Position numbers and translations under genes: made by a program. A model generated the notes under the pieces. It saw nothing but the letters and a program-made list of their open reading frames with translations. It was not told the origin of the DNA and did no database searches. This document shows positions 1,633 through 1,849 of a stretch of 1,849 bases of DNA, piece after piece; position 1 is the stretch's first letter; each line of letters begins with the position of its first letter. Origin of the DNA: Escherichia coli (GTDB lineage: Bacteria > Pseudomonadota > Gammaproteobacteria > Enterobacterales > Enterobacteriaceae); assembly GCF_003334305.1 (NCBI RefSeq), contig NZ_QOWS01000057.1, one strand, 5' to 3'.

Positions 1633-1710
1633 ATGAGCGGAAAACCGGCGGCGCGGCAGGGCGACATGACCCGCAGGGAAAGATCATCAGAAGTTCACTT
1701 TTTGTACTAA
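1633..1710 (+). pseudogene. Orphan 5' remnant of an rhs gene: first 13 codons (MSGKPAARQGDMT, start of the PAAR-containing N-terminus), then frame divergence and a stop
   Basis: The translation is MSGKPAARQGDMT|RRERSSEVHFLY*. The first 13 residues match the recalled canonical N-terminus of E. coli Rhs proteins (MSGKPAARQGDMTQYGG...). The segment 1635-1680 is a strongly GC-rich island within AT-rich flanks, and homology is lost at about 1670-1680. Confidence 0.6.
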
Positions 1711-1805
1711 ATAATTCGCATTTTATGTTTAAAAATTGAGATATTCCTCATTACCTGAAGCTGTTTTTTATTGCTTATACATGATCAAATACTCCTTACA
1801 TAAAT

Positions 1806-1811
1806 AAGGTG
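1806..1811 (+). promoter_or_regulatory. Shine-Dalgarno (AAGGTG) for the transposase ORF
   Basis: AAGGTG lies 5 nt upstream of the ATG at 1817. Confidence 0.45.
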
Positions 1812-1816
1812 AACAA

Positions 1817-1849
1817 ATGGAACTTAAAAAATTGATGGAACATATTTCT
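1817..1849 (+). CDS. ISAs1-family (H-repeat-associated, H-rpt) transposase, N-terminal 11 codons only (3' end lies outside the window)
   Basis: The ORF begins MELKKLMEHIS behind a good SD. I recall this as the N-terminus of the E. coli H-repeat proteins (YhhI/YdcC-type, MELKKLMEHISIIPDYRQ...), which sit beside rhs genes in Rhs elements. Only 33 nt are visible, so this rests on memory of a short match. Confidence 0.55.
   Translation, partial: MELKKLMEHIS

What the first reader, a model, noticed from the sequence alone, without database searches (positions are those of the whole stretch)
1672..1849. ISAs1-family (H-rpt) element abutting the Rhs toxin/immunity module
The terminal ORF start MELKKLMEHIS matches my recollection of the H-repeat transposases that characteristically accompany E. 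coli Rhs elements; the layout of rhs CT, downstream ORF and H-rpt resembles what I recall for the RhsB and RhsE elements. The IS may have truncated a neighbouring rhs copy (see the 5' remnant) and could mediate rearrangement of the locus. The assignment rests on 11 residues.
Basis: partly seen in the sequence, partly recalled or inferred. Interest (0 to 1): 0.4.

Follow-up and report, generated by a model that had tools for sequence, protein, structure and literature searches.

The report
Dead H-repeat insertion sequence beside Rhs
The end of the window is the left end of a well-known E. coli insertion sequence (the "H-repeat", ISAs1 family) that cut off the start of a second rhs toxin gene, but this copy is a broken, recombined fossil, so the finding is correct and ordinary.

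Summary
Confirmed and already known. Window 1674-1849 is the left 176 nt of an ISEc1/ISEc5-like H-rpt element (ISAs1 family). It starts with the terminal repeat CAGGGAAAGATCAT at 1674, and the transposase ATG is at 1817. More than 5,300 E. coli genomes hold copies, at 88-100% identity in the rows listed. RefSeq annotates this exact locus as rhs core / dsORF-h1 / ISAs1 family transposase.

The copy is dead. In all 9 sampled genomes that carry the window, the ORF has TAA at codon 18, just past the window end. The element also stops at nt 917 of 1291, because a 413-bp deletion removed the right inverted repeat and the C-terminal third. There is no 378-aa ORF, and no right end where flanking repeats could be sought.

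Window 1633-1673 is the first 41 nt of a second rhs gene. That gene is intact behind dsORF-h1 in other strains. Nine genomes hold the reciprocal junction (H-rpt right end | rhs nt 40 onward), so an H-rpt insertion truncated that rhs.

SNP patterns show the copy is chimeric. Its nt 1-~389 match a copy at the yafV/T6SS locus, and nt ~366-917 match the resident truncated copy at pptA. The H-rpt therefore served as recombination homology. Interest is low.

The parts
1..1095 (+). 3' part of the main rhs gene: conserved core end (PxxxxDPxGL region near 520-560) followed by the variable toxin tip CT-h1 (context, not part of the IS)
   Evidence: ORF 115..1095. RefSeq 'RHS element core protein'. The tip has an HEFAH motif and a weak Peptidase_M91 hit, E 0.0027.
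1107..1556 (+). dsORF-h1, presumed immunity gene of CT-h1 (context)
   Evidence: RefSeq WP_000978828.1 'RHS element protein dsORF-h1'. No Pfam hit.
1557..1632 (+). 76-nt spacer between dsORF-h1 and the start of a second, downstream rhs gene
   Evidence: In L007 and L008 the same spacer precedes a full-length rhs: dsORF-h1 ends at 8057 and rhs starts at 8134.
1633..1673 (+). 5' remnant (first 41 nt, MSGKPAARQGDMT...) of that second rhs gene, cut at the IS terminus. Bases 1674-1675 (CA) are shared by rhs and the IS, so the break lies between 1673 and 1675.
   Evidence: 100% identical over 43 nt to the start of the main rhs, L001 4834-4876. Sequence comparison of the junction. The reciprocal junction starts at rhs nt 40.
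1674..1849 (+). Left 176 nt of an ISEc1/ISEc5-like H-rpt element (ISAs1 family). The window ends inside it.
   Evidence: Other H-rpt copies match from window 1674 onward. In the window-bearing lineage the element aligns to ISEc1 nt 1-917 at 95.7%.
1674..1687 (+). Left terminal inverted repeat CAGGGAAAGATCAT
   Evidence: It matches the reverse complement of the ISEc1 right end (CAGGGCAAGATTAC) at 11 of 14 positions in the K-12 yhhI element, L005 3001-4291.
1817..1849 (+). First 11 codons of the transposase pseudogene. In the genomes that carry the window, TAA follows at codon 18, 18 nt beyond the window end.
   Evidence: Translation of 8 window-identical loci gives MELKKLMEHISIIPDYR*. RefSeq notes 'internal stop; missing C-terminus'.

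Best explanation
Window 1674-1849 is the left end of a defective H-rpt insertion sequence of the ISAs1 family, an isoform of ISEc1/ISEc5. It lies at the RhsE position of the E. coli chromosome, next to pptA.

Shown here:
- An H-rpt inserted into the start of a second rhs gene that followed dsORF-h1, at rhs nt 40-43. This left the 41-nt rhs stub at 1633-1673.
- The copy then lost function. CAA became TAA at codon 18. A 413-bp deletion removed the last 374 bp of the element, which held the right inverted repeat and residues about 258-378.

Inferred:
- The lost residues include the predicted catalytic E in the HVENK motif at residue 304-308.
- The copy can neither make transposase nor be mobilised in trans, because it has only one end.
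- What remains is passive: about 0.9 kb of homology shared with the several other H-rpt copies in each genome. SNP patterns show this copy is itself a crossover product. Its 5' ~370-390 nt come from the copy that carries the same rhs stub at the yafV/T6SS locus, and the rest comes from the resident truncated copy at pptA. The most likely history is that homologous recombination, with one crossover inside the H-rpt, moved the CT-h1/dsORF-h1 cassette between Rhs loci. That the other crossover lay in the rhs core was not tested.
For: - Identity and boundary.
- Family profiles: NF033564 scores 417 bits for intact YhhI and 295 bits for the stop-repaired pseudo-protein of this lineage, which covers profile positions 1-232 of 314. 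Pfam PF13808 + PF01609.
- Defects: TAA at codon 18 in all window-identical loci. The alignment to ISEc1 ends at nt 917. The 413-bp deletion relative to the K-12-type ydcC-pptA arrangement is visible in alignment A1. RefSeq pseudogene notes appear in 9 of 9 sampled genomes.
- Prevalence of the arrangement: 583 records have a best place at least 99% identical to the junction-to-pptA query, and the top rows cover 100% of it.
- Uninterrupted ancestor: dsORF-h1 + 76 nt + full-length rhs in L007 and L008.
- Reciprocal junction...GCCCTG|CGCAAGGGACTGG in 9 genomes.
- Mosaic: 0 differences to L002 over columns 0-388, and 0 differences to L017 from about column 366 to 917. There are 16 and 34 differences respectively in the other segments.
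Against: - The source genome of the window is unknown and the window stops 18 nt before the stop codon. The defective state is therefore inferred from 9 sampled genomes out of about 1,000 carriers. A rare carrier with an intact downstream part is not excluded.
- No genome examined has both rhs junctions around one H-rpt copy. 'One insertion event' is inferred from the matching position and the 2-bp overlap.
- An alternative origin by IS-adjacent deletion is not excluded for the left junction alone.
- The direction of the crossover (which locus was donor) is not established.
- No sigma-70-like promoter was found in 1540-1849. The scan is crude, so this says little.
Confidence: 0.9

Rival explanations
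1. It is an intact, potentially active ISAs1-family IS, 1.3 kb long with a 378-aa transposase and two inverted repeats. This is what the first reader expected to find on extension.
For: The left end, the 5' UTR and the first 11 codons in the window are indistinguishable from intact copies such as yhhI and ydcC. Intact 1291-bp copies exist in other loci and strains.
Against: All 9 sampled genomes that contain the window have TAA at codon 18 and an element cut at nt 917 with no right end. L001 also carries an IS10-like insertion.
Confidence: 0.03
2. The rhs-stub|IS junction arose by a deletion, not by simple insertion into rhs. The deletion would run from the left end of an H-rpt already resident downstream into the second rhs gene (IS-adjacent deletion, or illegitimate recombination at the CA(A)GGGA microhomology). 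It would remove the rhs body and its immunity genes.
For: - In L008 an H-rpt lies about 4.8 kb downstream of the second rhs start, at the same yafV-proximal place where L002 has the stub-bearing H-rpt.
- The rhs target CGCAAGGGAC resembles the IS end CAGGGAAAG.
- No flanking direct repeats were found at any copy.
Against: The reciprocal junction exists in 9 genomes: H-rpt right end followed by rhs from nt 40, overlapping the left junction by only CG. A true insertion predicts this. A one-sided deletion does not.
Confidence: 0.15
3. The ORF start is a chance resemblance and the AT-rich stretch 1676-1816 is just intergenic DNA.
For: Only 11 codons lie in the window. No promoter-like site was found. 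There is no Rfam family match.
Against: The 176 nt show 88-100% nucleotide identity to H-rpt left ends in the sampled rows of the genome search, and homology continues for 917 nt in the carrier genomes.
Confidence: 0

Closest known systems
ISEc1 (H-rptB, yhhI, downstream of rhsB in E. coli K-12) and ISEc5 (H-rptE, ydcC, downstream of rhsE)
   Same: Same element type. The left end, 143-nt leader and start codon are the same, and nucleotide identity to ISEc1 is 95.7% over nt 1-917. The genomic habit is the same: downstream of an rhs tip plus dsORF. The copy occupies the ydcC position next to pptA and shares the same right-hand flank DNA.
   Different: This copy has a nonsense codon at position 18 and lacks nt 918-1291, which include the right inverted repeat. 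Its left flank is an rhs 5' stub, not the divergent ISAs1 pseudogene found in K-12. It is a chimera of two H-rpt lineages.
RhsH element of natural E. coli isolates (Hill laboratory nomenclature; source of the name dsORF-h1)
   Same: RefSeq names the downstream ORF 'RHS element protein dsORF-h1', and the locus is an rhs core + CT + dsORF + H-rpt composite. That the name traces to Wang, Zhao and Hill 1998 (J Bacteriol 180:4102) is my recollection. The paper is not held in the library.
   Different: I could not compare with the original description. The original report of H-rpt as a component of Rhs elements (Zhao et al. 1993, J Bacteriol 175:2799) is also cited from memory and is not held.
ISAs1 of Aeromonas salmonicida (founding member of the family)
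   Same: Same transposase family by profile (NF033564; PF13808 + PF01609) and the same CAGGG termini. The family-wide terminus is from my memory of ISfinder. The CAGGG ends of the E. coli copies are shown.
   Different: ISAs1 has been reported to transpose (from memory). E. coli H-rpt transposition has not been observed (PMC3032704), and this copy is structurally incapable of it.

Membership tests
ISAs1 family insertion sequence (H-rpt / ISEc1-ISEc5 group) | Encodes a transposase that matches the ISAs1 family profile | tested here: met
   The stop-repaired pseudo-protein of the window-bearing lineage scores 295 bits against NF033564 (cut-off 70), covering profile positions 1-232 of 314. Intact YhhI scores 417 bits. 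Only 11 codons lie in the window, but they are identical to YhhI residues 1-11.
ISAs1 family insertion sequence (H-rpt / ISEc1-ISEc5 group) | Domain architecture DDE_Tnp_1_assoc (PF13808) + DDE_Tnp_1 (PF01609) with a complete DDE triad | tested here: not met
   The architecture is present in the intact relative: residues 8-94 and 102-343. In this lineage homology ends at residue ~258. The C-terminal part of PF01609, including the HVENK motif at 304-308 (the predicted catalytic E, by inference), is deleted.
ISAs1 family insertion sequence (H-rpt / ISEc1-ISEc5 group) | Left terminal inverted repeat beginning CAGGG | tested here: met
   CAGGGAAAGATCAT at window 1674-1687. Every other H-rpt copy examined starts at the same point.
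ISAs1 family insertion sequence (H-rpt / ISEc1-ISEc5 group) | Matching right terminal inverted repeat about 1.3 kb away (element 1291 bp) | tested here: not met
   Full-length relatives have it: L005 4278-4291, 11 of 14 matches. In window-bearing genomes the element ends at nt 917 through a 413-bp deletion that runs into the pptA upstream region.
ISAs1 family insertion sequence (H-rpt / ISEc1-ISEc5 group) | Single intact ORF of about 378 aa | tested here: not met
   TAA at codon 18 in all 8 window-identical loci translated, and in L004. RefSeq notes 'internal stop; missing C-terminus'.
ISAs1 family insertion sequence (H-rpt / ISEc1-ISEc5 group) | Target-site duplication flanking the element | tested here: inconclusive
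   This copy has no right end. The left junction (rhs nt 1-41) and the reciprocal right junction in 9 other genomes (rhs nt 40 onward) overlap by CG only. None of the other flank pairs read shows a direct repeat.
ISAs1 family insertion sequence (H-rpt / ISEc1-ISEc5 group) | Demonstrated transposition | not testable with these tools
   This needs an experiment. The literature states that H-rpt transposition has not been observed (PMC3032704).
Rhs element accessory component (H-rpt as defined for RhsB/RhsC/RhsE) | Lies downstream of an rhs core + variable tip + dsORF within an Rhs locus | tested here: met
   The window order is rhs tip, dsORF-h1, rhs stub, H-rpt. The same layout occurs at yhhH-yhhI and ydcD-ydcC. 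The chromosomal position is that of RhsE (pptA-yddH-nhoA flank).

The most novel reading that the evidence does not exclude
H-rpt elements may have a sequence preference for sites inside rhs genes that resemble their own CAGGGA terminus. Here the rhs target is CGCAAGGGAC. In L008 the left end abuts GGACAGGGAC inside an rhs core-end fragment. Such a preference would explain the long-noted but unexplained association of H-rpt with Rhs loci. It would also make H-rpt a dedicated shuffler of Rhs toxin cassettes rather than a chance passenger.
Probability: 0.08. Interest if true: 0.4.

Novelty: already known. Interest (0 to 1): 0.1.

Why it matters
It matters little beyond correct annotation. H-rpt elements have been known as components of E. 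coli Rhs loci since the early 1990s, and RefSeq already labels this locus as an ISAs1-family transposase pseudogene.

The extra detail recovered here is a tidy worked example of how dead IS copies act as portable homology that moves Rhs toxin/immunity cassettes between loci. That detail comprises both halves of an H-rpt insertion into an rhs start codon region, and a crossover inside the H-rpt that links the yafV/T6SS Rhs locus with the pptA (RhsE) locus. It does not reveal a new kind of element or mechanism.

Tried and rejected
- Literature. The library holds almost nothing on H-rpt. Only two papers contain both 'H-rpt' and 'Rhs'. The Hill-lab papers could not be retrieved by PMID or PMC id. 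The rhs evolution paper PMC2935791 does not mention H-rpt or transposases. The 'ISEc1 + Rhs' hit PMC10711316 concerns ISEc12, not ISEc1. The mobilome preprint only says ISAs1 circles were not detected.
- Promoter and terminator scan of 1540-1849: nothing found.
- Rfam scan of 1500-1849: only a meaningless sub-threshold snoRNA hit.
- Generic inverted-repeat finder on the full-length L002 copy. It did not report the terminal repeats, because they are short and imperfect and L002's right end is CCCCG. I found them by direct comparison instead.
- Simple adjacent-deletion model for the rhs stub. I downgraded it after the reciprocal junction turned up.
- Flanking direct repeats. None was seen at any H-rpt copy read.
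- Not used because not needed: protein database searches, structure prediction and metagenome scans.

Full report
**What is in the window**

The window contains five features in order:
- the 3' end of an rhs gene, as an ORF ending at 1095;
- a 149-aa downstream ORF at 1107-1556;
- a 76-nt spacer;
- a short sequence starting ATGAGCGGAAAACCGGCGGCGCGGCAGGGCGACATGACCCG at 1633;
- an AT-rich stretch leading to ATGGAACTTAAAAAATTGATGGAACATATTTCT at 1817-1849, where the window ends.

**Is it more than 11 residues?**

Yes. Megablast of the whole window against 5,426 complete E. coli genomes finds 1,002 genomes that cover at least 80% of it, and 929 records have a best place at 99% identity or more. RefSeq annotates the matching loci as 'RHS element core protein | RHS element protein dsORF-h1 | ISAs1 family transposase'.

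Megablast of 1620-1849 alone matches 5,336 genomes, although some of those places match only the rhs-start part of the query. The copies annotated yhhI (ISEc1), ydcC (ISEc5) and other ISAs1 transposases begin to match at query position 55-56, which is window 1674-1675. Most are 94-100% identical, with E-values down to 4e-86. That places the element boundary at 1674, where the sequence reads CAGGGAAAGATCAT.

In the K-12-type yhhI element the same terminus is matched 1,291 bp away by the reverse complement CAGGGCAAGATTAC, at 11 of 14 positions. The intact 378-aa product scores 417 bits against NCBIfam NF033564 'ISAs1 family transposase'. It has the Pfam architecture PF13808 + PF01609. The family assignment is secure.

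**What lies beyond the window end**

I fetched nine genomes that carry the window at 99.9-100% identity: L001, L003, L004 and L009-L014.
- All nine sit at the pptA-yddH-nhoA flank, which is the RhsE position of K-12 (compare).
- In all nine RefSeq marks the transposase as a pseudogene ('internal stop; incomplete; missing C-terminus').
- Direct translation gives MELKKLMEHISIIPDYR*. CAA at codon 18 has become TAA, 18 nt past the window end.
- Alignment to ISEc1 stops at nt 917 of 1291.

Alignment with the K-12-type ydcC-pptA arrangement shows a clean 413-bp deletion. It removed the last 374 bp of the element, including the right inverted repeat and codons ~258-378, plus 39 bp of flank. The lost codons include the HVENK motif at residues 304-308, which I infer to hold the catalytic glutamate.

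L001 has an IS10-like element inserted as well. The stop-repaired pseudo-protein still scores 295 bits against NF033564, covering profile positions 1-232 of 314.

This copy therefore cannot make transposase. With only one end, it should not be mobilisable in trans either.

**The rhs stub**

Window 1633-1675 is 100% identical to the first 43 nt of the main rhs ORF of the same locus. The rhs sequence continues ...GACATGACCCGCAAGGGACTGG, whereas the window reads ...GACATGACCCG|CAGGGAAAGATC. The break is thus at rhs nt 41-43, exactly at the IS terminus.

A search with 1500-1673 found strains (L007, L008) in which dsORF-h1 and the same 76-nt spacer are followed by a full-length second rhs gene. This is the uninterrupted state.

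I then built a chimeric query from the H-rpt right end plus rhs from nt 34 onward. Nine genomes contain it as one piece. In L018 and L019 the sequence reads ...GTAATCTTGCCCTG|CGCAAGGGACTGGATATTGTGCAGGG, which is rhs from nt 40 onward.

The two junctions overlap by only CG. That is what a true insertion into rhs predicts, with a 2-bp duplication or none, whose halves were later separated by recombination between H-rpt copies. A one-sided adjacent-deletion origin is less likely, but it is not excluded for the left junction alone.

**The copy is a chimera**

I aligned nine H-rpt copies over nt 1-917.
- The window-lineage copy has 0 differences from L002 over columns 0-388 and 16 differences after that. 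L002 is a full-length copy at the yafV/T6SS Rhs locus that carries the same rhs stub and the same TAA.
- It has 34 differences from L017 before about column 365 and 0 after that. L017 is a truncated copy at pptA without the stub and without the stop.
- A crossover at about nt 366-389 inside the H-rpt joins the two.

The 413-bp truncation is also shared by pptA-locus copies with entirely different upstream Rhs modules (L015-L017). It therefore belongs to the resident copy, not to the incoming segment.

The simplest history is homologous exchange, with one crossover inside the H-rpt, that moved the CT-h1/dsORF-h1/stub cassette between the yafV and pptA Rhs loci. That the other crossover lay in the rhs core was not tested. 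The direction of transfer is not established. This is the only sense in which 'the IS mediates rearrangement' is supported.

**Comparison with what is known**

H-rpt elements were described as components of RhsB, RhsC and RhsE in the early 1990s, and the dsORF-h1 name comes from the RhsH element. Both points are my recollection of Zhao et al. 1993 and Wang et al. 1998, which the library does not hold. A genome paper in the library confirms that H-rpt is listed in ISfinder and that transposition has not been observed (PMC3032704). RefSeq already annotates the feature as an ISAs1-family pseudogene. Nothing here is a new kind of element.

**Caveats**

- The source genome is unknown, so the defective state is inferred from 9 of about 1,000 carriers.
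- A query running from the junction to pptA has a best place of 99% identity or more in 583 records, and the top sampled rows cover it fully.
- No genome examined has both rhs halves around a single H-rpt.

**Verdict**

The qualification is that the element is a dead, one-ended, recombinant fossil. It is already known and of low interest.

Noticed in passing
L018 6001-6140 and L019 6001-6140 (reciprocal of window 1633-1687): Nine E. coli genomes carry an H-rpt right end fused to rhs from nt 40 onward (...GCCCTG|CGCAAGGGACTGG). The window has rhs nt 1-41 fused to the left end. The overlap is only CG, which suggests an insertion with a 2-bp duplication or none.
   Followed up: partly
L005 2961-3061/4250-4340; L006, L007, L008, L002, L018, L019 flanks: None of the H-rpt copies read has flanking direct repeats. 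Left and right flanks are unrelated at every copy, which fits extensive recombination between copies or a transposition mode without a long duplication.
   Followed up: partly
L008 12880-12910; window 1668-1680: Two H-rpt junctions lie next to rhs sequence that resembles the IS terminus CAGGGA. These are GGACAGGGAC|CAGGGAAAG in an rhs core-end fragment in L008, and the rhs target CGCAAGGGAC here. This is anecdotal and may be chance in GC-rich rhs DNA.
   Followed up: no
L007 7503-7620 (corresponds to window ~1049-1110): In strain ETEC1749 a full-length ISEc1 copy ends inside the 3' end of the CT-h1 toxin coding region. This leaves dsORF-h1 as an orphan immunity gene ahead of an intact second rhs. 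It is an independent H-rpt junction within the same module.
   Followed up: partly
window 538-1092: The Rhs toxin tip CT-h1 contains an HExxH motif (GHEFAHA, about 862-876) and gives a weak Pfam hit to Peptidase_M91 (E 0.0027). It may be a zinc-metallopeptidase-type toxin.
   Followed up: partly
window 1107-1556: dsORF-h1, the presumed immunity protein, has a hydrophobic signal-peptide-like N-terminus (MMKYLMVLLSLFSGSVLG) and no Pfam match. That would suit a periplasmic immunity protein.
   Followed up: partly
L001 9674-11927 and L001 2760-3821: In strain 13KWH46 the H-rpt fossil is further split by an IS10-like (ISVsa5) insertion at IS nt ~556. A second H-rpt upstream has an in-frame 228-bp internal deletion that gives a 302-aa ORF.
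   Followed up: partly
L001 4834-9095; L010, L011, L012, L013 (main rhs upstream of the window): RefSeq annotates the main rhs gene carrying CT-h1 as frameshifted or truncated in 5 of 9 sampled carrier genomes. The whole toxin locus is often decaying, or the long repeats are prone to assembly error.
   Followed up: no
window 1633-1710: The rhs start codon now opens a 25-codon fusion ORF (MSGKPAARQGDMTRRERSSEVHFLY) that reads into the IS left end. It is probably meaningless but may still be translated from the rhs ribosome-binding site.
   Followed up: no
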